14,669 nucleotides of DNA. It comes from a virus. The stretch lies in UHGV virus genome UHGV-0214741; one strand, written 5' to 3'. The notes under the pieces are model-generated. The model did no database searches, was not told the DNA's origin, and was given only the letters and a program-made list of their open reading frames with translations. A program made the position numbers and the translations under genes. Shown piece after piece: positions 258 through 14,529 of this stretch. Numbering within the stretch: the first letter of the stretch is position 1; the number at the start of each line of letters is the position of its first letter.

Positions 258-400
258 GTGTTCGCGGGTGTTCGTCGTGGTGTATCTATCTCATTTATTG
301 CTATGATTATAAAGGAAAATTTCGTTTTTCTTGTTCGCCCTTGTTCGTCGCTGTTTGCCCTTGTACGATGCACGGTGTAGTCAATGGTGTAGTTAATTTT
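258..400. repeat. Left arm repeat block: TTGTTCG-type 10 bp repeats (258-280 and a tandem array 331-370) followed by tandem 12 bp GGTGTAGTYAAT x2 (374-397)
   Basis: Seen directly: GTGTTCGCGG, GTGTTCGTCGTGG, then TTGTTCGCCC / TTGTTCGTCG / CTGTTTGCCC / TTGTACGATG as four consecutive 10 bp units, then ACGGTGTAGTCAATGGTGTAGTTAATTTT. The same architecture recurs at 14401-14461. Position next to int and att suggests arm-type recombinase or excisionase binding sites. Confidence 0.6.
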
Positions 401-411
401 GATGACCGGAA

Positions 412-3526: not shown

Positions 3527-3826
3527 ATGAGAACATATTTATCTGGCTTGACTGCCAGCGGTTATGCACACCCCAAAATTATCCCCGGCGCTATTTATCT
3601 GGATAAGAACGGTAACAGAGTAACGGTAAAAGAACTGATGTTTGACCGTGTGTATTTTATTCGTGATGGCTATTCATTTCATAGTTCGCTGAACGTGGAG
3701 ATCTTTATTAGCAGATTCCGGCGGGAAATCCCGACTTCCAGAAATAACCATGTGTCACGTGTGGATGTGGATAAAAAACTGCAGGAACTGAAAAACATGA
3801 TTGCCGCGTGGAGAGAGCCGAAATGA
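3527..3826 (+). CDS. Hypothetical protein (99 aa)
   Basis: ORF with GGGGA 9 nt upstream of the ATG. Its stop TGA (3824-3826) overlaps the replication-protein ATG (3823-3825) as ATGA. Hand-counted lines give about 37-42 percent G+C. Confidence 0.6.
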   Translation: MRTYLSGLTASGYAHPKIIPGAIYLDKNGNRVTVKELMFDRVYFIRDGYSFHSSLNVEIFISRFRREIPTSRNNHVSRVDVDKKLQELKNMIAAWREPK

Positions 3827-5640
3827 AAAAAGCGCCAAATTTAAAACACCAGCCGCGTGACAAAATGACGGAAGTCATCATTTTTGCGGGTAGTGATGCG
3901 TGGGCACATGCGAAGCAGTGGCAGGAACAGGACGGGCGACTGGCTGGCGATAACGTGCCACCTGTCTGGCTTGGAGAGCAACAACTTGCCGAACTGGACA
4001 ACCTGCAAATCGTACCGGACGGACGCTATCGCGTGCGTCTCTACCAGGCGGGGTTATTGCGTCCGGGGCTTGTTAATACCATCGGGCAGAAACTGGCAGC
4101 GGCAGGTGTCAGGGATGCTGATTATTACCCTGAAGGAATGCACAGCCAGAAACGGGAGAACTGGCGCGAATATCTGGAACGTGAACGGGCAGAGCAGGCG
4201 GAAAAGAAAAAGGTAGTTGAACTGCCTGTAAAGAAAAAAGAGCGGGTAAAAGACGATAACGCTTCATCACTGGCGCTTAACCAGATGGGAGCAAGTCAAC
4301 GCGGCGAAGTTCTCCTGGCACATTATGGCGGTGAACTGGCGATTCATGCTGACTCTGACACTGTTCACCATTACAACGGCGTTGTATGGGAGCCAGTACA
4401 GGATAAAGAATTACAGCGAGCTATGGCACAGATTTTCATTGATGCGGAGATCAGCTATTCGCAGAACGCCATTAAATCGGCGGTCGATACCATGAAGTTA
4501 AGTTTGCCTGTTATGGGGAATACAGCCCGTAACCTGATTGGATTCAGTAACGGGGTATTTGATACCAGAACAGGTAATTTTCGGGAGCATAACAAAAACG
4601 ACTGGTTGTTAATTGCCAGTGAATTACCTTTCAGCCCACCAGCAGAGGGGGAAACGCTGGCAACACATGCGCCGAATTTCTGGAAGTGGTTACGCCGTTC
4701 GGTGGCTGAGAATGACCGCAAGGCGGATCGCGTACTGGCTGCATTATTCATGGTGCTGGCGAACCGGTACGACTGGCAGTTATTCATTGAGGTAACAGGT
4801 CCAGGGGGAAGTGGTAAAAGCGTGATGGCGGAGATTTGCACCATGCTGGCGGGTAAGGCCAACACAGTATCGGCAAGCATGAAGGCGCTGGAAGATGCAA
4901 GGGAACGCGCGTTAGTGGTTGGCTTTTCGCTGATTATCATGCCGGATATGACCCGCTACGCTGGTGATGGGGCAGGAATTAAGGCCATTACAGGCGGTGA
5001 CAAGGTGGCAATTGACCCGAAACACAAAGCCCCCTACTCAACGCGTATTCCGGCAGTAGTGCTGGCGGTTAACAATAACGCCATGTCATTCAGTGACCGC
5101 AGCGGGGGGATCTCACGTCGTCGGGTGATATTCAATTTTTCGGAAGTTGTACCGGAGAACGAACGCGATCCAATGCTGGCGGAAAAAATAGAAGGTGAGC
5201 TGGCGGTAGTGATTCGCCATCTGCTTACACGGTTTGCTGACCAGGACGAAGCCAGACGCCTGTTATATGAGCAGCAGAAATCTGAAGAAGCACTGGCGAT
5301 AAAGCGAGAGGGGGATTCGCTGGTGGACTTCTGCGGCTATCTCATGGCGTCGGTAATGTGTGATGGCCTGTTAGTGGGTAATGCTGAAATTGTGCCATTC
5401 AGCCCACGCAGGTATCTCTATCATGCCTATCTGGCTTATATGAGGGCACATGGGTTTGGTAAACCTGTAACACTGACGCGCTTCGGTAAAGATATGCCGG
5501 GGGCAATGGCGGAATATGGCAGGGAGTATATGAAACGGAAAACGAAGCACGGTTTGCGTTCAAACGTGACACTGACGGAGGAATCAGAAGACTGGATGCC
5601 ATCATGTGTATCGGTCACTAATGACGATAGCAAAAATTAA
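3823..5640 (+). CDS. Replication protein, phage/plasmid primase P4-family C-terminal domain with SF3-type NTPase (Walker A GPGGSGKS)
   Basis: The ORF track starts at GTG 3808, but ATG 3823 has GGAGAG upstream and an ATGA overlap with the preceding gene. Walker A VTGPGGSGKSV and a Walker-B-like hhhhPD (LIIMPD) are present. It lies immediately upstream of a TGTTCACC iteron array, as for P4 alpha and its ori. Confidence 0.85.
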   Translation: MKKAPNLKHQPRDKMTEVIIFAGSDAWAHAKQWQEQDGRLAGDNVPPVWLGEQQLAELDNLQIVPDGRYRVRLYQAGLLRPGLVNTIGQKLAAAGVRDADYYPEGMHSQKRENWREYLERERAEQAEKKKVVELPVKKKERVKDDNASSLALNQMGASQRGEVLLAHYGGELAIHADSDTVHHYNGVVWEPVQDKELQRAMAQIFIDAEISYSQNAIKSAVDTMKLSLPVMGNTARNLIGFSNGVFDTRTGNFREHNKNDWLLIASELPFSPPAEGETLATHAPNFWKWLRRSVAENDRKADRVLAALFMVLANRYDWQLFIEVTGPGGSGKSVMAEICTMLAGKANTVSASMKALEDARERALVVGFSLIIMPDMTRYAGDGAGIKAITGGDKVAIDPKHKAPYSTRIPAVVLAVNNNAMSFSDRSGGISRRRVIFNFSEVVPENERDPMLAEKIEGELAVVIRHLLTRFADQDEARRLLYEQQKSEEALAIKREGDSLVDFCGYLMASVMCDGLLVGNAEIVPFSPRRYLYHAYLAYMRAHGFGKPVTLTRFGKDMPGAMAEYGREYMKRKTKHGLRSNVTLTEESEDWMPSCVSVTNDDSKN

Positions 5641-5927: not shown

Positions 5928-6173
5928 ATGACAGCGAAGCACACAAAAAAATCACAATCGCACGCCCTTGATTTGACGGAACACTGGTTAAGGGTGTCGA
6001 TAAAAATCATCGACCGCAACGCCGGGGAAGGATATGCGAAAGCACATCCCGAACTGATTAGCTCATTCATGACAACGGCAGCTGCAAACTTTGCCACGCT
6101 GACAGAACGGGAGATTGCCGAAGCGGAACAGGTGACAACCATCAACGTTAAAACCGGAGAGCAGACAGCATGA
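5928..6173 (+). CDS. Hypothetical protein (81 aa)
   Basis: ORF directly after the ori; its stop overlaps the next ATG (ATGA at 6170-6173). No recognisable motif. Confidence 0.5.
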   Translation: MTAKHTKKSQSHALDLTEHWLRVSIKIIDRNAGEGYAKAHPELISSFMTTAAANFATLTEREIAEAEQVTTINVKTGEQTA

Positions 6174-6595
6174 CAGCACAGATAGCGGCTTACGGGCGGC
6201 TGGTGGCTGACCCGCAGTTAAAGACCACCAGCAAGGGTACACAAATGACGATGGCTAGTATGGCGGTCCCCCTTCCGTGCAGCCAGGCAGATGACGGAAC
6301 GGCGATGATGTGGTTATCCGTCCTGGCGTTTGGCAGACAGGCCGACGCACTGGCAAAACACCACAAAGGCGAACTGGTGAGCGTGGCGGGTAACATGCAG
6401 GTAAGCCAGTGGACAGGCCAGAACGGCGAAACGCGGCAGGGCTGGCAGGTTATCGCAGACAGCGTGATCAGTGCGCGAACAGCGCGACCGGGCGGCAAAA
6501 AAGGCCAGCAGGGGCAGGCCACTGACGCACTGAACAGGGCAAAACAGCAGACGGGTCAGCACGATGATCCGTACGGGGACAACATACCGTTTTAG
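6170..6595 (+). CDS. Single-stranded DNA-binding protein (SSB-like, OB fold, acidic DIPF-type C-terminal tip)
   Basis: 141 aa. GRLVADPQL ... WLSVLAFGRQADALAKHHKGELVSVAGNMQVSQWTGQNGETRQGWQVIAD parallels the E. coli SSB OB-fold pattern. It has a Gly/Gln-rich linker and the C-terminus DDPYGDNIPF (compare the SSB tail DDDIPF). Confidence 0.75.
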   Translation: MTAQIAAYGRLVADPQLKTTSKGTQMTMASMAVPLPCSQADDGTAMMWLSVLAFGRQADALAKHHKGELVSVAGNMQVSQWTGQNGETRQGWQVIADSVISARTARPGGKKGQQGQATDALNRAKQQTGQHDDPYGDNIPF

Positions 6596-7688: not shown

Positions 7689-8858
7689 ATGAAGAAATTA
7701 ATCGAACTCCGCCAGCAAAAAAACGCCCTGAAAAACCAGATGCGATCCCTGCTGGAAAAAGCCGACAGTGAAAACCGTAGTCTGAACGCTGAAGAAGGCA
7801 AACAGTTTGATGAACTGCGTGCAAAAGCTGATGCCCTCGACACAGAAATTTCCCGCCTCGAGTCTGTGGCTGATGAAGAACGCAGCAAGCCAGGAACGGG
7901 CATCCAGAAATTATCATCTGATGAATTGCGTAACTACATCGTAACCGGAGATGTGCGATCACTGTCCACCAGCACTGACAGCGGCAGGGATGGCGGATAT
8001 ACCGTAATTCCTGAGCTTGATCGCGAAGTCATGCGCCAGCTACAGGATGACAGTGTTATGCGCGTGATCGCGACCGTGAAGACCGCAAAATCAAATGAGT
8101 TTCAGAAACTGGTTTCCACTGGCGGCGCAACTGTAGGACGAGGCACAGAAGGCAGCGCACGCAGTGAAACCAACACCCCGAAAATTGAACGCGTAACCAT
8201 CAAGTTGAATCCGATCTACGCCTACCCGAAAACCACGCAGGAAATCCTGGATTTTTCAGAGGTGGATATTCTGGGCTGGTTATCCTCCGAAATTGCCGAC
8301 ACGTTCGCCAGCACCGAAGAGGATGATTTTGTTAATGGCGACGGTAACGGCAAGCCGAAAGGCTTCATGGCTTACACCCGTGCGGCGACCAGTGACAAAA
8401 CCCGCGCTTTTGGCACCATTGAAAAAATAGTAGCGGCAAGTGGAACCGCCATTACAGCGGACGAACTGATCGACATTCTCTACAAGCTGAAAGCGAAATA
8501 CCGCAAAAATGCCGTCTGGGTGATGAACTCGGGCACGGCAGGGACACTACAGAAGCTGAAAAATGAGAACGGCGATTATATCTGGCGCGACAGCCTTAAA
8601 GAAGGTGCGCCGGATATGTTGCTTGGTCGTCCTGTTTACTGCCTGGAGTCCATGCCGGACATCGGCGCAGGAAAAGCACCGCTAGCGGTTGGCGATTTCA
8701 GTCGTGGTTATTTCATCGTTGATCATGTAACAGGGATTCGCACCCGACCGGACAACATTACTGAACCCGGATTCTACAAGGTCCACACGGATAAATATCT
8801 GGGCGGTGGTGTGGTGGATTCAAACGCCATCAAAATTCTGGAAATGAAAGCTGGCTAG
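7689..8858 (+). CDS. Major capsid protein, HK97-type, with an N-terminal coiled-coil (scaffold-like delta) region
   Basis: 389 aa. The N-terminal roughly 70 aa are strongly helical and charged (LIELRQQKNALKNQMRSLLEKADSENRSLNAEEGKQFDELRAKADALDTEISRLE), followed by a body typical of HK97-family capsid proteins. Followed by a prohead protease and portal. Confidence 0.85.
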   Translation: MKKLIELRQQKNALKNQMRSLLEKADSENRSLNAEEGKQFDELRAKADALDTEISRLESVADEERSKPGTGIQKLSSDELRNYIVTGDVRSLSTSTDSGRDGGYTVIPELDREVMRQLQDDSVMRVIATVKTAKSNEFQKLVSTGGATVGRGTEGSARSETNTPKIERVTIKLNPIYAYPKTTQEILDFSEVDILGWLSSEIADTFASTEEDDFVNGDGNGKPKGFMAYTRAATSDKTRAFGTIEKIVAASGTAITADELIDILYKLKAKYRKNAVWVMNSGTAGTLQKLKNENGDYIWRDSLKEGAPDMLLGRPVYCLESMPDIGAGKAPLAVGDFSRGYFIVDHVTGIRTRPDNITEPGFYKVHTDKYLGGGVVDSNAIKILEMKAG

Positions 8859-8912: not shown

Positions 8913-9473
8913 ATGAAAAACACCGATTTTGAAATCCGCACATCTGAACTGACCGCCAGCAATAAAAAGCTGGTGGGGTATGCCGTTCGCTGGAACAGCC
9001 TTTCAGAAATTATCTGGGACGAATTCCGCGAACAGTTCACGCCGGGGGCTTTTGCTGACTATCTGGCGACGGGTAATGATGTGCGCTGCCTGTATGAGCA
9101 TGACTATACCCAACTGCTGGGGCGCACCAAATCCGGCACTCTGGTACTGACTGAGGATAACACCGGGTTACGTTTTGAACTGACACCGCCGGATACCCAG
9201 CTTGGAAAAGATGTGCTTACGCTGGTGGAGCGTGGCGACATTACAGGAATGAGCTTTGGTTTTCGCGCATTATGCGAGGAGTGGAGTATCGCGCAAAAAC
9301 CGTATCTGCGTACCGTAACCGCCGCTGAACTCCGTGAAATCACAATAACGTCGATGCCTGCTTATCCAGAATCTGGCGTGGAGATTGCCCACCGTTCGTT
9401 GTTTGCACAGCACCCTGAATTACGTCCGACAGGAAATAATCGTCATCGCTGGTCTGAGCTGGCGGGGTTGTGA
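8913..9473 (+). CDS. Prohead maturation protease, HK97 family
   Basis: 186 aa; GYAVRWNS ... GAFADYL ... VRCLYEHD ... GLRFEL ... GDITGMSFGF matches the HK97 prohead protease pattern as I recall it. Confidence 0.85.
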   Translation: MKNTDFEIRTSELTASNKKLVGYAVRWNSLSEIIWDEFREQFTPGAFADYLATGNDVRCLYEHDYTQLLGRTKSGTLVLTEDNTGLRFELTPPDTQLGKDVLTLVERGDITGMSFGFRALCEEWSIAQKPYLRTVTAAELREITITSMPAYPESGVEIAHRSLFAQHPELRPTGNNRHRWSELAGL

Positions 9474-9474
9474 T

Positions 9475-10689
9475 ATGTGGTGGCCTTTTAGTCGTAAAAA
9501 AAGCGAGCAGCGTAACCTGTCCATTGATGATTTTCTGGCGCTGTCCGGCGTACCGAATACCGGATCCGGAGAATATGTTTCTGCCGGGACGGCTGAATCA
9601 TTGCCTGCAGTGATGAATGCGGTTTCTGTCATCGCTGAGGCGGTGGCCACGATGCCGTGTTATCTGTATCTGGTACGTAATGACAAGGGCAGGGAGGCGC
9701 GGGAATGGCTGGACAGTCACCCAGTAGATATTCTGCTGAATGAGCAGCCTAATTCGTGCCAGACACCTTACCAGTTTAAACGCACAATGATGCGTCACTG
9801 CCTGCTAAACGGTAACGCCTATGCGGTTATTGAGTGGGGGCAGGACGGGCAGCCAAAATCACTTCATCCTTATGCGCCGGGGTGTGTTGTACCGGAACGC
9901 ACAGGCGCACACAAATACCGCTATACCATCACCGAACCCTGTACAGGAACGGTGCGCACGTATTTACAGGAAGAAGTTTTGCATCTCCGCTATGCCTCGG
10001 ATGATGGCTTTCTGGGGCGTTCCCCCGTCACGATTTGCCGTGAGGCGCTGGGGCTTGGCCTTGCTCAACAGCGTCACGGAGCCAGCATTATGAAAGATGG
10101 CATGATGGCGGCAGGGATTATCACGTCAGGCGAATGGCTGGACGGCGTGAAAGGTAAACAGGCATTGGATGCTCTGGAACGCTACAAGGGGGCGAAAAAT
10201 GCCGGAAAAACGCCAATCCTTGAAGGGGGCATGGATTACAGGCAACTGGGAATGAGTAACCAGGATGCGGAATGGCTGGCCTCCCGTCGCTTCTCCATTG
10301 AAGACATCGCCCGCATGTTCAACGTATCGCCTATTTTTCTGCAGGAATACAGCAACAGCACCTACAGCAATTTCAGCGAGGCAAGCCGCGCGTTTCTGAC
10401 CATGACAATGCGCCCGTGGCTGGCGAACTTCGAACAGCAAATCAAGGCCGCTTTGCTGGTGGCTTCTCCCGTACCTGGTACCCGTTATCTGGTTGAGTTT
10501 GATTCAGCCGATTTATTACGCGCCACACCCACCGAACGTTATGCCACGTATGAGAAAGGGATTAAGAACGGGATCATGAATCCGAACGAAGCCCGTGAGC
10601 GTGAGGGTATGCCGCCGCGTGAAGGTGGTGATGAGTTCAGCCAGGCATGGAAACAGACTGTGGAAATTAAAGGGAGAAAAGATGAGTGA
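9475..10689 (+). CDS. Portal protein, HK97 family
   Basis: The ORF track starts at 9385 inside the protease gene. ATG 9475 (MWWPFSRKK...) begins 1 nt after the protease stop and is the more likely start. About 404 aa, with length and position typical of HK97-type portals. Confidence 0.85.
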   Translation: MWWPFSRKKSEQRNLSIDDFLALSGVPNTGSGEYVSAGTAESLPAVMNAVSVIAEAVATMPCYLYLVRNDKGREAREWLDSHPVDILLNEQPNSCQTPYQFKRTMMRHCLLNGNAYAVIEWGQDGQPKSLHPYAPGCVVPERTGAHKYRYTITEPCTGTVRTYLQEEVLHLRYASDDGFLGRSPVTICREALGLGLAQQRHGASIMKDGMMAAGIITSGEWLDGVKGKQALDALERYKGAKNAGKTPILEGGMDYRQLGMSNQDAEWLASRRFSIEDIARMFNVSPIFLQEYSNSTYSNFSEASRAFLTMTMRPWLANFEQQIKAALLVASPVPGTRYLVEFDSADLLRATPTERYATYEKGIKNGIMNPNEAREREGMPPREGGDEFSQAWKQTVEIKGRKDE

Positions 10690-10984
10690 AGCCAGAATTA
10701 CACCTGATGAAGTCAGGGCACATCTTCGACTTGATGATGATTTATCCGGTGAAGGCGAACTTCTGAAAATGTATACCGATGCGGCGCTGGAAGCCTGCCA
10801 GAAGCATATCGGGAAACGTTTTGAAGACGGGCTGGAATTTACCCCGGCAATGCGTGTTGGTTGCCTGATGTACATCGCTTTCCTGTACGAGAACCGGGAA
10901 GCGGTTTCACCAGTGGAGCACTCGGAACTGCCTATGGCTATTTCTGCGCTCTGGTCAGTTTATCGTGACGTAGGGGTGTACTGA
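10682..10984 (+). CDS. Head-tail connector (gp6-like head-tail adaptor) protein
   Basis: The ORF track begins at 10595, but ATG 10682 has GGGAG 5 nt upstream and overlaps the portal stop. MSEARITPDEVRAHLRLDDD...GELLKMYTDAALEACQKHIGKR fits the gp6-like connector pattern. About 100 aa. Confidence 0.7.
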   Translation: MSEARITPDEVRAHLRLDDDLSGEGELLKMYTDAALEACQKHIGKRFEDGLEFTPAMRVGCLMYIAFLYENREAVSPVEHSELPMAISALWSVYRDVGVY

Positions 10985-11424
10985 TGCCGTGGCAACCATT
11001 AAGGCGATGCACTGAGCCTGGCTGTAATAAGCGCGTGAAGTCCGGCAAGTGTGAAGAGCACAGGCGGGCTGCATGGCGTGCAGAGGATGCCAGACGGGGA
11101 CACCGCCGCGCGCGCGGGTATTCCCGACAGTGGGACAAATACCGCGCCCTGTACCTGAGCAAAAACCCGTTATGCGTGCGTTGTCTGGCTAAGGGGATTT
11201 ATACGCCAGCTCTTGTGGTGGATCACATCATTCCCATCAATGGCGGCGGTGATGTTCTCTTCTGGCCTGAGTGGAATCACCAGGCATTGTGCCAGACGTG
11301 CCACAACCGTAAGACGACACGAGAAGATCCAGCCACGAAAGCAAACCGTAAAGCGGGCATGTATCGCGAGCAGGAAGAACGGGCGGCACACCGTAACGAC
11401 TGGATGTATGGCGATGATGACTGA
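10984..11424 (+). CDS. HNH endonuclease (packaging-associated, terminase partner)
   Basis: 146 aa; Cys-rich N-terminus (CTEPGCNKRVKSGKCEEH) and HNH core VVDHIIPINGGGD ... WNHQALCQTCHNRKT. Its ATG overlaps the connector stop (TGATG). Position immediately upstream of terS is the usual one for HNH-dependent cos packaging. Confidence 0.85.
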   Translation: MPWQPLRRCTEPGCNKRVKSGKCEEHRRAAWRAEDARRGHRRARGYSRQWDKYRALYLSKNPLCVRCLAKGIYTPALVVDHIIPINGGGDVLFWPEWNHQALCQTCHNRKTTREDPATKANRKAGMYREQEERAAHRNDWMYGDDD

Positions 11425-11600
11425 ACAGGAGCAAACCAGGCTGATACGTGGACTGATAAGGCAGCGTGACACATGGAAGACACAGGAGACAGAGCACAAA
11501 GCCAACAGGACAGGGCGCACAAAACGCACCACAGCGAAGCGATTAACCGACCGTGACCGCGAGGTCATGGAATGTTTTCGCAATCGCTGGTGAGGCCGTC

Positions 11601-11700
11601 AGAGGGGGTGGGGGTGGTTTTCAGGACGAAACCGTCCCTGCCGGACACCGACCGCCCCCTCAAATTTTTGTGCACGGTAATTTTTTTGAAAATAATTGGG
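11601..11700. other. Candidate cos / terminase recognition region: GC-rich dyad element followed by an AT-rich tract, directly upstream of terS
   Basis: GAGGGGGTGG (11602-11611) pairs with CCGCCCCCTC (11652-11661) with one mismatch; nested GGACG-AAAC-CGTCC hairpin (11624-11637); then AAATTTTTG...TTTTTTTGAAAATAATT. Functional assignment is by position only. Confidence 0.3.
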
Positions 11701-11712
11701 CGAAAAAAGAAC

Positions 11713-12069
11713 ATGGCAAGACCACCAAAAGCCCCCGCTTACCTGGATGAAATCGCGGTCAGGCAGTGGAAGGAAAAATCGCGCCAGCTTTCCGGGCGGG
11801 AAGACCTTACCCCCGCCGACTGGAGCAATCTGGAACTGTATTGCGTTAACTACTCTATATACCGCAAAGCCGTCGAAGACCTTGCGACGCGCGGGTTCAG
11901 CATTGTTAACAGTCAGGGCAGCGAGAGCAGAAACCCCGCACTGAGCGCAAAGGCTGACGCAGAAAGAATAATGATCAAAATGGCTTCTTTGCTGGGTTTT
12001 GACCCGGTAAGCCGTCGCAGAAATCCACCGGAAACAGAGGAAGAGGACGAACTTGACCGCCTGGCATGA
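11713..12069 (+). CDS. terS: Terminase small subunit, P27-family-like
   Basis: The ORF track starts at 11572, but the recognisable protein begins at ATG 11713 (MARPPKAPAYLDEIAVRQWKEK...), a typical P27-type TerS N-terminus. About 118 aa. Confidence 0.8.
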   Translation: MARPPKAPAYLDEIAVRQWKEKSRQLSGREDLTPADWSNLELYCVNYSIYRKAVEDLATRGFSIVNSQGSESRNPALSAKADAERIMIKMASLLGFDPVSRRRNPPETEEEDELDRLA

Positions 12070-13714
12070 GTACGCAGAAGGCGTAAAAAACGGCAAAATT
12101 ACGGCCTGTAAACGACTGAAACAGGCTGTTAAACGGTATTTTTCTGACCTTGAAAACTCCCTTTACACGTTCGATCCGGAGGTCGTGGAGCGGTTTATTG
12201 CCTTTTCCCGGGTGTGCCCGCACGTAAAAGGCGCAATGCGCGGTAGCCCCATTGAACTTGAGCCGTGGCAGCAGTTCGCCTTTGCCTGCATCCTGGGATT
12301 TAAGGTTAAGGCCACCGGACGGCGCAAATACACCAGCGCATTCATTGAAGTACCGCGAAAAAATGCCAAATCCACGGTCGCCGCTATCCTGGCTAACTGG
12401 TTTCTGGTTATGGAAAACGGGCAGCAGGATATTTACACCGCCGCCGTGAGTCGTGATCAGGCGCGGATCGTGTTTGATGATGCGCGTCAGATGTGCCTTT
12501 TATCCCGACCGTTACGAAAGCGGGTAAATATTCAGGCGCACAAGGTGATACACCCGAAAACCAACAGCCTGTTAAAGCCACTGGCAGCAAAAGCGGCAAC
12601 CATTGAGGGGACAAACCCGAGTCTTGCCATTGTGGATGAATATCACCTGCACCCAGACAACGGGGTTTATTCCGCACTTGAACTGGGGATGGGGGCGCGT
12701 CCGGAGGGGCTGTTATTTGCCATCACCACATCGGGGAGCAACGTTGTTTCAGCCTGTAAACAACACTACGACTATTGCTGCCAGATACTGGATGGTGAAG
12801 AGGTGAACGAATCCATGTTCGTACTGATTTACGAGCTGGATGATGAAAGCGAGGTTGACGATCCGGCGATGTGGATAAAGGCGAATCCCAATATCGATGT
12901 TTCCGTCGATCGTGAAAAACTGGCCTCAACCATCCAGAAAGCGCGGGGTATTCCGTCGCAGTGGGTGGAAATGCTCACCAAGCGATTCAATATCTGGTGT
13001 CAGGGGGCTACGCCGTGGATGGGTAACGGTGCATGGGCGGAGTGCGCCGGAACGTTCGCTGAGGCGGATTTATACGGGCAGGAGTGCTATGCGGGGCTGG
13101 ACTTATCATCAACCAGCGATATTTCCAGCGTGTGCTATGCCTTTCCGGTCGGTAAAAAGATTATGCTGGTTTCACGTCACTATCTACCGGAATTTCAGCT
13201 ACAGAACCCTGCCAATAAAAACCGCGCCATCTATCGCCAGTGGGCAAAGGCGGGCTGGATACGCACAACACCGGGTGACTGCATTGATTATGACCGTATC
13301 CGTGATGACATCATGGCGGATGCAGAGAATTTCAATATCAGGCTGGTGGGTTTCGATACATGGAACGCCACGCACCTGAGGACGCAGCTACAGGGAGCGG
13401 GATTTGAGGTGGAGCCGTTCCCGCAAACGTACCTTCGTTTTAGTCCGGCGGCGAAATCGTTCGAAGTTTTTGTTAACCGGAAGGTGATTGTTCATCGTGG
13501 TGATCCGGTGCTGGCCTGGTCAATGAGTAATGTTGTGATGCAGAGTGACGCGAACGCCAATATCAAGCCGAACAAGAAAAAATCATCCAATAAGATAGAC
13601 CCGAGCGTTGCGGCGCTGATGGCGTTTGGCACATTCCAGGCTGAGCATGAGGAATTTGCATTTGATATGAGCGACAGCCAGAAAGAGCGACTTGCGGCAT
13701 TTGATGGGGTATGA
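12053..13714 (+). CDS. terL: Terminase large subunit (Terminase_1-like ATPase/nuclease)
   Basis: 553 aa. The ORF opens with TTG at 12053, preceded by AGAGGA 5 nt upstream; there is no in-frame ATG nearby. It overlaps the terS 3' end. Size and position fit TerL; VPRKNAKST is a Walker-A-like motif. The exact start is uncertain. Confidence 0.85.
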   Translation: MTAWHEYAEGVKNGKITACKRLKQAVKRYFSDLENSLYTFDPEVVERFIAFSRVCPHVKGAMRGSPIELEPWQQFAFACILGFKVKATGRRKYTSAFIEVPRKNAKSTVAAILANWFLVMENGQQDIYTAAVSRDQARIVFDDARQMCLLSRPLRKRVNIQAHKVIHPKTNSLLKPLAAKAATIEGTNPSLAIVDEYHLHPDNGVYSALELGMGARPEGLLFAITTSGSNVVSACKQHYDYCCQILDGEEVNESMFVLIYELDDESEVDDPAMWIKANPNIDVSVDREKLASTIQKARGIPSQWVEMLTKRFNIWCQGATPWMGNGAWAECAGTFAEADLYGQECYAGLDLSSTSDISSVCYAFPVGKKIMLVSRHYLPEFQLQNPANKNRAIYRQWAKAGWIRTTPGDCIDYDRIRDDIMADAENFNIRLVGFDTWNATHLRTQLQGAGFEVEPFPQTYLRFSPAAKSFEVFVNRKVIVHRGDPVLAWSMSNVVMQSDANANIKPNKKKSSNKIDPSVAALMAFGTFQAEHEEFAFDMSDSQKERLAAFDGV

Positions 13715-14226: not shown

Positions 14227-14400
14227 TGCACAGGGAGGGGCGGGTCAAATCTCTGTACCCTGACGTCTTCCGGACTGCCAGCCCCATCGATTTTTTATAC
14301 CCGCGAAAAATGAAAAACGCTTCACGCTGGTGGGCCTGATGCCGATAACTGGTTTCATGACTGATAGCCGGAAAATGATAACGATTAAAGCGTGTTGATC

Positions 14401-14461
14401 TTTGTTCGTGGTTGTTCGATATTGTTCGTGGAACGGTGTAGTTAATGGTGTAGTTAATTTT
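14401..14461. repeat. Right arm repeat block: TTGTTCG repeats x3 followed by tandem GGTGTAGTTAAT x2
   Basis: TTTGTTCGTGG (14401-14411), TTGTTCGAT (14412-14420), ATTGTTCGTGG (14421-14431), then ACGGTGTAGTTAATGGTGTAGTTAATTTT (14433-14461). This 29-mer matches 372-400 with one mismatch. Confidence 0.6.
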
Positions 14462-14529
14462 ACTGTTTTTGACGAGCTTATTGTTTGCAACTCAATGAAA
14501 AATAAAGGCTAATAAGCCAAATGCTATAA

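What the first reader, a model, noticed from the sequence alone, without database searches (positions are those of the whole stretch)
11425..11712. Candidate cos site between HNH and terS
An HNH endonuclease directly upstream of terS-terL is the arrangement of HNH-dependent cos packaging (HK97-like), where cos sits in the HNH-terS spacer. That spacer here contains a GC-rich dyad (GAGGGGGTGG ... CCGCCCCCTC with a nested GGACG/CGTCC hairpin) followed by an AT-rich tract that could bend DNA. If it is the element's own cos, it explains how the satellite's terminase selects satellite DNA.
Basis: inference. Interest (0 to 1): 0.4.

Follow-up and report, generated by a model that had tools for sequence, protein, structure and literature searches.

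The report
Packaging (cos) site of a phage satellite
The short non-coding stretch just before the small-terminase gene of this capsid-forming phage satellite is very probably its DNA-packaging cut site, an ordinary relative of the sites mapped in phages HK97, phiP27, SfI and D3; the same island also carries a second, helper-phage-type cut site near its right end.

Summary
The window is a capsid-forming PICI (cf-PICI) related to EcCIEDL933. Its core (11604-11695) is under strong purifying selection. In relatives found only through TerS, its blocks show 0.71-0.85 mean pairwise identity, against 0.46 at terS third codon positions. It aligns without gaps to the cos sites of HK97, HK022, D3, phiP27, SfV/SfI and EPP-1. 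Mapped or annotated phage ends fall in one register: SfI TGCCCGCCCC, phiP27 CGCCCGCCCC, HK97 -1|+1 and the D3 record end. By homology, the predicted cohesive end here is CGACCGCCCC (11649-11658), with the top-strand nick at 11658|11659. The predicted TerS site is the GC-core plus T7 tract at about 11673-11686. An induced-prophage assembly of a Klebsiella cf-PICI breaks exactly here. The "dyad" is only the G-block and the cohesive-end block: it is not above chance, shows no covariation, and the nested hairpin is not conserved. Verdict: cos interpretation supported; a new member of a known kind. Separately, 14233-14315 is a second cos, 92-95% identical to SfV/SfII/ST64B-type phage cos sites. It is also found in at least one terminase-less island.

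The parts
10984..11424 (+). HNH endonuclease, the accessory nuclease of HK97-type cos cleavage
   Evidence: Pfam HNH 8.8e-10; 36% identity to HK97 gp74, E 6e-17
11414..11593 (+). Conserved small ORF (59 aa) between HNH and cos. Not part of the cos core. Absent in the Citrobacter-type and Pasteurellaceae relatives
   Evidence: ORF. RefSeq 'hypothetical protein' in EDL933. C-terminal RDRExxECFRNR conserved while the middle varies. No Pfam hit
11594..11712 (+). Non-coding gap that holds the whole cos1 site
   Evidence: unannotated in all 534 E. coli genomes that carry it
11604..11621 (+). G-block (GGGGGTGGGGGTGGTTTT). A conserved upstream element of the cos family whose role is unknown (cosQ-like termination signal is an inference).
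   Evidence: 11610-11614 invariant in 140 variants. Block 11605-11630 has 0.71 mean pairwise identity in the TerS-ascertained set. Present at the same distance in HK97, D3, phiP27, SfV, EPP-1 and AbIPP1
11631..11643 (+). Variable linker of fixed length; holds the 3' half of the non-conserved nested hairpin
   Evidence: mean pairwise identity 0.37, below terS third codon positions at 0.46; hairpin paired in 30.7% of cells
11647..11658 (+). Cohesive-end block ACCGACCGCCCC. ACC (11647-11649) is invariant. The predicted top-strand nick lies between 11658 and 11659
   Evidence: Same register as HK97 ACCGCCGCCAAA|, D3 ACCGCGCCCCCA|, EPP-1 ACTGCCCGCCTC|, SfI ACTGCCCGCCCC| and phiP27 ACCGCCCGCCCC. The pattern ACYGNCNGCCCC hits the window only here and at cos2, 0.07 expected
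11649..11658 (+). Predicted 10-nt 3' cohesive end, CGACCGCCCC (by homology; not measured)
   Evidence: Aligns to the phiP27 annotated cos-site CGCCCGCCCC, the SfI run-off-sequenced gap TGCCCGCCCC (PMC3636060) and the HK97 10-nt 3' overhang ending at -1 (PMC9410871, PMC11331095)
11660..11669 (+). TCAAATTTTT block immediately right of the predicted nick
   Evidence: 11664-11668 invariant; identical TCAAATTTTT in phiP27
11670..11695 (+). GTGCACGGTA-ATTTTTTT-GAAAATAA. Predicted TerS recognition site; the HK97 +15..+29 equivalent is about 11673-11686
   Evidence: T-tract 11681-11685 invariant; block 11681-11695 has 0.845 mean pairwise identity. HK97 TerS binds CTAACCCGATTTTTT, a C:G pair plus A-tract with a 34-degree bend (PMC11331095). 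Register
11713..12069 (+). terS, P27 family small terminase
   Evidence: Pfam Terminase_4 1.6e-23
12053..13714 (+). terL, HK97-type large terminase
   Evidence: Pfam TerL_ATPase and TerL_nuclease; 28% identity to HK97 gp2, E 1e-48
14233..14315 (+). Second cos site (cos2), same orientation, of the SfV/SfII/ST64B/phiP27 phage type. Its cohesive-block equivalent is TGCCAGCCCC at 14276-14285
   Evidence: Second profile hit. 92-95% identity to phage cos regions over these 83 bp only. Lies between HNH and terS in prophages. Alignment

Best explanation
The 119-nt non-coding gap 11594-11712 (core 11604-11695) is the cos site that the island's own TerS-TerL-HNH machinery uses. It belongs to the HK97/phiP27/SfV/D3 family of HNH-linked cos sites.

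Proposed mechanism:
1. On concatemeric island DNA, the P27-family TerS binds the GC-core plus T7 tract at about 11673-11686 (inferred from HK97).
2. TerS positions TerL, helped by HNH, over the C-rich block about 15-25 bp upstream.
3. Staggered nicks are made after 11658 on the top strand and after 11648 on the bottom strand. This leaves a 10-nt 3' cohesive end, CGACCGCCCC (inferred from register identity with SfI, phiP27, HK97 and D3).
4. DNA is packaged rightwards (terS, terL, att, int ... HNH) into the island's own small capsids until the next cos1.
5. The G-block, which enters last, may act in termination (speculative).

Specificity for satellite DNA would lie in the TerS-site block. That block differs between cos1 and the helper-type sites, whereas the cleavage block is shared.

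Shown: conservation, homology, register, gene context. Inferred: the cut positions, the overhang, TerS binding and the packaging direction.
For: (a) Context. The element is a cf-PICI: int, D5-type primase, capsid, protease, portal, connector, HNH, terS, terL. It is about 85% identical to EcCIEDL933 over HNH-terS. TerL and HNH are homologous to HK97 gp2 and gp74.

(b) Selection. Of 39 loci found only through TerS homology in GTDB species genomes, 38 keep the element upstream of terS. The exception, L100, is a deletion derivative. These loci span Enterobacterales, Aeromonas and Pasteurellaceae. Block identities are 0.71-0.85, against 0.46 at terS third codon positions and 0.37 in the linker.

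(c) Homology. The profile's top hit is the cos junction in HK97 (E 0.004, next 1.4), EPP-1 (3e-5) and AbIPP1 (1e-4). On the D3 junction it ends exactly at the record end. The multiple alignment from G-block to A-tract is almost free of internal gaps.

(d) Register. The SfI 10-nt end was sequenced from virion DNA (PMC3636060). The phiP27 record annotates a 10-nt cos-site. HK97 has its mapped -1|+1 (PMC11331095). The D3 and EPP-1 record ends all map to one column. The cf-PICI consensus 12-mer ACCGCCCGCCCC is identical to that of phiP27.

(e) Physical hint. The induced-prophage record LR881103 (vB_KppS-Ant) is identical to the K. pneumoniae ATCC 13883 chromosomal copy on both sides. It lacks 69 nt centred on the predicted nick, 31 nt to the left and 38 nt to the right.

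(f) Literature. Packaged cf-PICI DNA is reported to form concatemers through the cohesive ends of cos sites (10.1101/2025.02.11.637232).
Against: - No termini were mapped for this element or any cf-PICI in the papers I could read.
- The profile hits on phages are weak (9-19 bits). In HK022 a chance hit inside a gene outscored the cos junction (E 0.0009 versus 0.003).
- The island's TerS shows no BLASTP similarity to HK97 gp1, and gp1 has no Terminase_4 hit. Transfer of the TerS binding site from HK97 is therefore by DNA architecture only.
- How the Ant record ends were produced is unknown; they could reflect trimming.
- The SfV record starts 16 nt left of the common register, so record ends are not always physical ends.
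- A second cos-like site exists at 14233-14315.
Confidence: 0.86

Rival explanations
1. The island's terminase actually uses cos2 (14233-14315). The HNH-terS element would then be a vestige or serve another role.
For: cos2 has the full family architecture and matches phage cos sites at 92-95%. Those phages encode P27-family TerS proteins like the island's.
Against: cos2 is absent from EcCIEDL933, from vB_KppS-Ant and from the Pasteurella elements, which are or resemble functional cf-PICIs. cos1 is retained in 38 of 39 TerS-ascertained loci and is under strong constraint. The Ant assembly breaks at cos1. cos2 also occurs in a PICI without terminase genes, so it fits a helper-served site. The predicted TerS-site block differs between cos1 and cos2.
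Confidence: 0.05
2. The GC-rich dyad followed by a T-run is an intrinsic transcription terminator or attenuator separating the head genes from terS-terL.
For: G-rich and C-rich arms followed by AAATTTTT. The consensus scan lists two weak terminator-like sites nearby, at 11551-11570 and 11596-11611.
Against: The dyad has a 40-nt loop and was not called as a terminator. There is no covariation and the consensus folding energy is negligible. The fold is not better than shuffles at a convincing level. The same blocks form mapped cos sites in HK97, SfI and phiP27. Conservation extends 35 nt past the T-run.
Confidence: 0.03
3. The element packages by a headful (pac) mechanism, and this conserved block is a pac or TerS-loading site without defined ends.
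For: TerS-recognised sites upstream of or within terS are also typical of pac phages. No ends have been measured for this element.
Against: HNH next to an HK97-type TerL is the signature of 3'-overhang cos phages (PMC9410871; PMC3592412 abstract). The block homologous to mapped cohesive ends is among the most conserved parts. A cf-PICI paper reports cohesive ends (10.1101/2025.02.11.637232). A defined break occurs in the Ant assembly.
Confidence: 0.03

Closest known systems
cos site of phage phiP27 (NC_003356, annotated cos-site 21806-21815) and of Shigella phages SfI/SfV
   Same: Lies between HNH and a P27-family terS. Same G-block, same spacing, same cohesive block: the cf-PICI consensus ACCGCCCGCCCC is identical to phiP27, and the window has one change. 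TCAAATTTTT follows immediately. A 10-nt cohesive end was mapped in SfI (PMC3636060).
   Different: The region 12-37 nt right of the nick differs: ACGCACGGTGATTTTTTTGAAAATAA in cf-PICIs against ACACCCGCGAAATTAAAAATTT or ATACCCGCGAAAAATGAAA in the phages. The cf-PICI TerS is shorter (118 aa versus about 155-165 aa) and at most about 40% identical to phage TerS proteins. The host element is a satellite, not a phage.
cos site of phage HK97, the best-studied HNH-dependent cos system
   Same: HNH-(small ORF)-cos-terS-terL order. G-run about 45-55 nt upstream of the cut. An ACCGCC... block ending at the cut. A GC core plus 7-9 bp A-tract 15-30 bp downstream, which is the mapped TerS site (PMC11331095). 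10-nt 3' overhang, with cleavage stimulated by the HNH protein (PMC9410871).
   Different: HK97 TerS (gp1) shows no detectable sequence similarity to the island's TerS. The DNA similarity is weak (12 bits). The spacing between the cut and the A-tract differs by 1 nt.
cos sites of classical E. coli PICIs (EcCICFT073 cos1/cos2, Rpp system)
   Same: A satellite carrying its own variant cos, and more than one cos copy in one island (PMC6739421).
   Different: Those are lambda-type sites (cosQ-cosN-cosB) served by the helper's terminase, redirected by Rpp. Here no lambda cosN is present, and the island encodes its own TerS, TerL and HNH.
cos-carrying SaPIs (SaPIbov5 type) and P4
   Same: cos2 of this window resembles their strategy: a satellite carrying a copy of a helper-type cos site.
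   Different: Those satellites have no terminase of their own. This island has both its own packaging module with cos1 and the helper-type cos2.

Membership tests
HK97/phiP27/SfV/D3-type cos site (HNH-linked, 3' cohesive ends) | Located between an HNH endonuclease gene and terS-terL, same strand | tested here: met
   HNH 10984-11424, terS 11713-12069, terL 12053-13714. Same order in HK97, D3, phiP27, SfV, AbIPP1 and an E. coli prophage.
HK97/phiP27/SfV/D3-type cos site (HNH-linked, 3' cohesive ends) | Terminase large subunit and HNH homologous to those of HK97 | tested here: met
   TerL 28% identity, E 1e-48; HNH 36% identity, E 6e-17.
HK97/phiP27/SfV/D3-type cos site (HNH-linked, 3' cohesive ends) | Shared DNA architecture at fixed spacing: G-block, linker, AC(C/T)G..CCCC cohesive block, A/T run, GC core plus A-tract | tested here: met
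   Almost gap-free alignment of cos1 with seven phage cos junctions. The profile's top hit is the cos junction in HK97, EPP-1 and AbIPP1. Caveat: scores are weak, and a chance hit outranked the junction in HK022.
HK97/phiP27/SfV/D3-type cos site (HNH-linked, 3' cohesive ends) | Packaged DNA has unique ends with a 9-10 nt 3' overhang at this site | not testable with these tools
   Only indirect evidence. The induced-prophage assembly LR881103 lacks 69 nt centred on the predicted nick. Cohesive ends are reported for another cf-PICI (10.1101/2025.02.11.637232).
HK97/phiP27/SfV/D3-type cos site (HNH-linked, 3' cohesive ends) | TerS binds specifically just downstream of the cut | not testable with these tools
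   Inferred from HK97 +15..+29 (PMC11331095) and from the invariant T-tract 11681-11685.
Capsid-forming PICI (cf-PICI) | 10-18 kb island with integrase, replication module, capsid, protease, portal, connectors, HNH, TerS and TerL, and no tail or lysis genes | tested here: met
   Pfam calls on window ORFs. About 85% identity to the HNH-terS region of EcCIEDL933, which has the same gene order. Direct repeats near 378-404 and 14436-14462 bound about 14 kb. Definition from 10.1101/2025.02.11.637232.
Intrinsic transcription terminator | Stable GC-rich stem with a short loop immediately followed by a U-run, maintained by compensatory changes | tested here: not met
   40-nt loop, and not called by the scan. 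Covariation term zero. Nested hairpin 30.7% paired.
Lambda-type cos (cosQ-cosN-cosB, 12-nt 5' ends) | cosN sequence GGGCGGCGACCT | tested here: not met
   Only one 2-mismatch match, inside the capsid gene, at chance level.

The most novel reading that the evidence does not exclude
This cf-PICI lineage has two packaging addresses. cos1 is read by its own terminase for packaging into self-made small capsids. cos2 (14233-14315) is a near-exact copy of the cos site of SfV/SfII/ST64B/phiP27-type phages. cos2 would let a co-resident phage of that type package the island, as multimers or into its own heads, or would titrate that phage's terminase. The island would then combine the autonomous and the cos-piracy strategies of satellites.
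Probability: 0.3. Interest if true: 0.65.

Novelty: new member of a known kind. Interest (0 to 1): 0.38.

Why it matters
cf-PICIs are a recently described and widespread class of satellites that package only their own DNA into capsids they build themselves. The cis-acting site that makes this possible was not mapped in any of the papers I could read.

Placing it to within a few bases gives a directly testable target for end mapping, EMSA and cos-plasmid transduction. The predictions are a cohesive end CGACCGCCCC at 11649-11658 and a TerS site at about 11673-11686.

It also shows that cf-PICI cos sites share the cleavage block with HK97/phiP27-type phages but differ in the presumed TerS-binding block. 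That is the simplest explanation for mutually exclusive packaging of satellite and helper.

The finding itself is what a specialist would expect at this position. The less expected item is the second, helper-type cos site in the same island.

Tried and rejected
- **Hairpin or dyad as the functional unit:** rejected. It is at chance level in shuffles, shows no covariation, and the nested stem is not conserved. G-run and C-run lengths do not covary across 140 variants.
- **Terminator:** rejected.
- **blastn of the spacer against phages:** found only two close cf-PICI-derived records and no phage cos. A profile was needed.
- **IMG/VR pattern scan for contigs ending at the site**: uninformative. 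Its loci were used only as extra variants. Conservation statistics were recomputed on the TerS-ascertained set to avoid that ascertainment bias.
- **AbIPP1 and SfI records:** these were re-linearised by their authors, so their starts are not physical ends. The SfI end is taken from the paper's run-off sequencing.
- **Pasteurella Pmp7/Pmp8 records:** these are prophage-style extractions and carry no end information.
- **Lambda-type cosN:** absent.
- **Orphan copies of cos1 elsewhere in E. coli genomes:** none evident. cos1 is in 534 genomes, against 515 with the HNH-terS module at the stricter search setting.
- **Not used:** structure prediction of TerS and large protein searches, because they would not locate the cut.

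Full report
**What the window is.** Pfam scans identify:
- a tyrosine integrase (412-1659)
- a D5-type primase (3808-5640)
- SSB (6170-6595)
- an HK97-fold capsid (7689-8858)
- a prohead protease (8913-9473)
- a portal (9385-10689)
- a head-tail connector (10595-10984)
- an HNH endonuclease (10984-11424)
- a P27-family small terminase (11713-12069)
- a large terminase (12053-13714)

There are no tail or lysis genes. The HNH-terS region is 100% identical to a chromosomal locus of E. coli ST648. It is about 85% identical to the EDL933 island, EcCIEDL933, the prototype capsid-forming PICI. The region occurs in 515 of 5426 complete E. coli genomes. The window is therefore a cf-PICI.

**Checking the observation.** However, 11414-11593 is a 59-aa ORF that overlaps the HNH stop codon. 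RefSeq annotates it in EDL933. Its C-terminus (RDRExxECFRNR) is conserved across Enterobacterales while the middle diverges, which points to a real small protein. The non-coding gap is thus only 11594-11712.

The dyad is a 9-of-10 match with a 40-nt loop.
- Repeats of that quality occur about 7 per kb in this window and in 7% of shuffles of the spacer.
- The DNA fold is not clearly better than shuffles (z -1.84).
- Across 28 relatives, the outer arms pair in 74% of cells only because both are G-run and C-run blocks. The measure that counts pairs changed on both sides did not exceed the shuffle control (8 observed against a shuffled mean of 7.6, reached in 272 of 500 shuffles). The covariation score was borderline (17 of 500).
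- The nested GGACG/CGTCC stem pairs in 31% of cells.
- RNAalifold returns -2.09 kcal/mol with zero covariation.

So the dyad is real as a string, but it is not the signal.

**The real signal is sequence conservation.** I collected relatives through TerS protein homology only: 39 loci from one-genome-per-species GTDB contigs, covering Enterobacterales, Aeromonas and Pasteurellaceae. Thirty-eight keep the same non-coding element upstream of terS. The exception, a Shigella locus, is a deletion that removes the right half of the element and the start of terS.

| Region | Mean pairwise identity |
|---|---|
| terS codon position 1 | 0.79 |
| terS codon position 2 | 0.84 |
| terS codon position 3 | 0.46 |
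| G-block region 11605-11630 | 0.71 |
| Linker 11631-11643 | 0.37 |
| C-rich block plus T5, 11644-11669 | 0.80 |
| T7..AATAA block 11681-11695 | 0.845 |

Non-coding blocks as constrained as first and second codon positions indicate a sequence-specific cis-acting site. With 140 distinct variants, 11610-11614, ACC 11647-11649, 11664-11668 and 11681-11685 are invariant. Part of that larger set was found by motif, so I rely on the TerS-ascertained figures.

**Homology to mapped cos sites.** The HK97 GenBank record ends ...GGGCAGGGGGGGGGATCAAATC...GACCGCCGCCAAA. It starts GTTTGAATTTAACGCTAACCCGATTTTTTTAG..., 49 nt before terS. Position +1 of the HK97 papers equals record base 1: T16, the C:G pair at 21 and the A:T run at 24-29 all match (PMC11331095).

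I built a profile HMM from the TerS-ascertained cf-PICI elements and searched each genome at full sensitivity.
- **HK97 (circularised):** the cos junction is the top hit on the correct strand (E 0.004; next hit 1.4).
- **Edwardsiella phage EPP-1:** the junction is the top hit (E 3e-5).
- **Acinetobacter phage AbIPP1:** the HNH-terS gap is the top hit (E 1e-4).
- **D3 junction:** the alignment ends exactly at the record end.
- **HK022:** a chance hit inside a gene scored slightly higher than the junction. These scores alone are therefore marginal.

The decisive evidence is the multiple alignment. From the G-block to the A-tract, cos1 of the window, EDL933, Klebsiella and Pasteurella cf-PICIs, HK97, phiP27, SfV, EPP-1 and AbIPP1 align without internal gaps. 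D3 needs one gap.

**Register of the cut.** Independent end determinations fall in one column.
- SfI: run-off sequencing of virion DNA showed a 10-nt gap, TGCCCGCCCC (PMC3636060). These are the last 10 bases of its record.
- phiP27: the record annotates a 10-nt cos-site, CGCCCGCCCC.
- HK97: cleaved between -1 and +1, with a 10-nt 3' overhang (PMC11331095, PMC9410871).
- D3 and EPP-1: the records end after ACCGCGCCCCCA and ACTGCCCGCCTC.

In all of them the cut follows a 12-mer that begins AC(C/T)G. The cf-PICI consensus 12-mer, ACCGCCCGCCCC, is identical to that of phiP27. The window has ACCGACCGCCCC at 11647-11658.

By homology:
- the top-strand nick is at 11658|11659
- the bottom-strand nick is at 11648|11649
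- the cohesive end is CGACCGCCCC
- the HK97 TerS minimal site (+15..+29, a C:G pair plus A-tract, with the DNA bent 34 degrees) maps to about 11673-11686, inside the invariant T-tract block

**A physical hint.** The record LR881103 (vB_KppS-Ant, 'induced prophage', 16.5 kb) is a Klebsiella cf-PICI. Its two ends are identical to the chromosomal copy in K. pneumoniae ATCC 13883, but it lacks 69 nt between them. Of these, 31 nt lie left and 38 nt right of the predicted nick. This is what an assembly of linear virion DNA with poorly covered ends would give. How the record was made is unknown, so I treat this as supportive only. A cf-PICI paper also reports concatemerisation of packaged DNA through the cohesive ends of cos sites (10.1101/2025.02.11.637232). 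Neither that paper nor the original cf-PICI description (10.1101/2022.09.08.507074) gives the position or sequence of the site.

**Mechanism and specificity.** The cleavage block is shared between cf-PICIs and the phages. The block 12-37 nt to its right is group-specific:

| Group | Sequence 12-37 nt right of the cut |
|---|---|
| cf-PICI | ACGCACGGTGATTTTTTTGAAAATAA |
| SfV type | ATACCCGCGAAAAATGAAA |
| phiP27 | ACACCCGCGAAATTAAAAATTT |
| HK97 | AACGCTAACCCGATTTTTTTAG |

TerL and HNH are homologous across these systems. TerS proteins are divergent or unrelated in sequence. The simplest reading is that TerL and HNH read the common cut site, while TerS reads the private block. That would explain exclusive packaging of satellite DNA. 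This step is inference.

The G-block sits at a fixed distance upstream in every member and is partly the reverse complement of the cohesive block: 8 nt exact in SfV and phiP27, and 5-7 nt in most cf-PICIs. Its role is unknown; a cosQ-like termination function is a guess.

**Rivals.** A terminator reading fails on loop size, the lack of covariation and the extent of conservation. Headful packaging is unlikely given the HNH plus HK97-type TerL module and the conserved cohesive block. The remaining rival is the second site described next.

**A second cos site.** The profile's second hit in the window (E 0.012) led to 14233-14315.
- This 83-bp stretch, and only it, is 92-95% identical to the cos regions of Shigella phages SfII, SfV, SfIV and SfI, Salmonella ST64B and several E. 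coli phages. It is 82% identical to the annotated cos region of phiP27.
- In prophages the same sequence lies between HNH and a P27-family terS.
- Its cohesive-block equivalent is TGCCAGCCCC (14276-14285), one change from the phage TGCCCGCCCC.
- The 12-mer pattern ACYGNCNGCCCC matches the window only at cos1 and cos2, both on the + strand (0.07 expected).
- cos2 is absent from EcCIEDL933 and vB_KppS-Ant.
- cos2 with its island-specific flanks occurs in 346 E. coli genomes, but is joined to a cf-PICI terL in only 77.
- In the one other context I inspected, strain MS15052, it sits at the right end of a terminase-less island. That island has a primase and a protease-capsid fusion gene.

cos2 thus looks like a helper-served cos module of PICIs that this cf-PICI lineage also carries. 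Because cos1 is universal and constrained in cf-PICIs and cos2 is not, cos1 is the island's own site. Whether cos2 is functional here is open. Two lambda-type cos sites in one PICI have a precedent in EcCICFT073 (PMC6739421).

**Verdict.** The site is an ordinary, expected member of a known cos family, newly placed for cf-PICIs. The dyad or hairpin reading is not supported. Confidence is about 0.86 that 11594-11712 is the functional cos of the island, and about 0.6-0.7 that the ends are exactly as predicted. The most interesting by-product is the helper-type cos2.

Noticed in passing
window 14233-14315 (+): Second complete cos site of the SfV/SfII/ST64B/phiP27 phage type. It is 92-95% identical to phage cos regions over exactly these 83 bp, lies about 120 bp inside the right att repeat, and has the same orientation as cos1. 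Its cohesive-block equivalent is TGCCAGCCCC, against the phage TGCCCGCCCC. It is absent from the EDL933 and Ant cf-PICIs.
   Followed up: partly
window 11414-11593 (+): 59-aa ORF between HNH and cos with the conserved C-terminal motif RDRExxECFRNR. It comes in two N-terminal flavours (MTEQEQ..LI.GLI and MNEKDVVNLY..L) across Enterobacterales cf-PICIs and has no Pfam family. It is missing in the Citrobacter-type and Pasteurellaceae elements. HK97 also has an unannotated ORF in the equivalent position.
   Followed up: partly
L259 (E. coli MS15052, NZ_CP082097.1 3607146-3617262): A terminase-less PICI-like island carrying the same cos2 module next to tRNA-Ile. It has a DUF927 primase, an SSB remnant and a ClpP-like protease/major capsid fusion protein. 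This suggests cos2 plus the preceding 93-96-aa ORF is a mobile helper-cos cassette shared between PICI types.
   Followed up: partly
window 378-404 and 14436-14462: Direct repeats GGTGTAGT(C/T)AATGGTGTAGTTAATTTT, preceded by GTTCG-rich repeats. These are likely the attL/attR cores with integrase arm-type sites, bounding an island of about 14 kb.
   Followed up: no
L100 (Shigella flexneri CP182556.1), about 1171-1230 of the locus: A decayed cf-PICI. A deletion joins the linker of cos1 directly to codon 8 of terS, removing the cohesive block, the TerS site and the terS start.
   Followed up: no
L108-L115, L124 (Pasteurellaceae bacterium Macca, LVZB01): One genome holds at least nine terS loci of this family. 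In several, about 150-200 nt of palindrome-rich sequence is inserted between the cos element and terS. Similar insertions occur in Rodentibacter, Haemophilus and Bisgaard taxon 46. The cos-to-terS distance is therefore not constrained.
   Followed up: no
L004 (Klebsiella phage P12620-1, PQ569648.1, about 90.6 kb): A 106-kb 'phage' record contains a cf-PICI-like terS whose homology begins abruptly at the start codon, with unrelated sequence upstream and no cos element. This is possibly a chimeric assembly.
   Followed up: no
L255/L256 (SfV NC_003444 record ends): The SfV record starts 16 nt to the left of the register shared by SfI, phiP27, HK97, D3 and EPP-1 (TCCGGACTGCCCGCCCC...). Its deposited ends probably do not mark the physical termini.
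   Followed up: no
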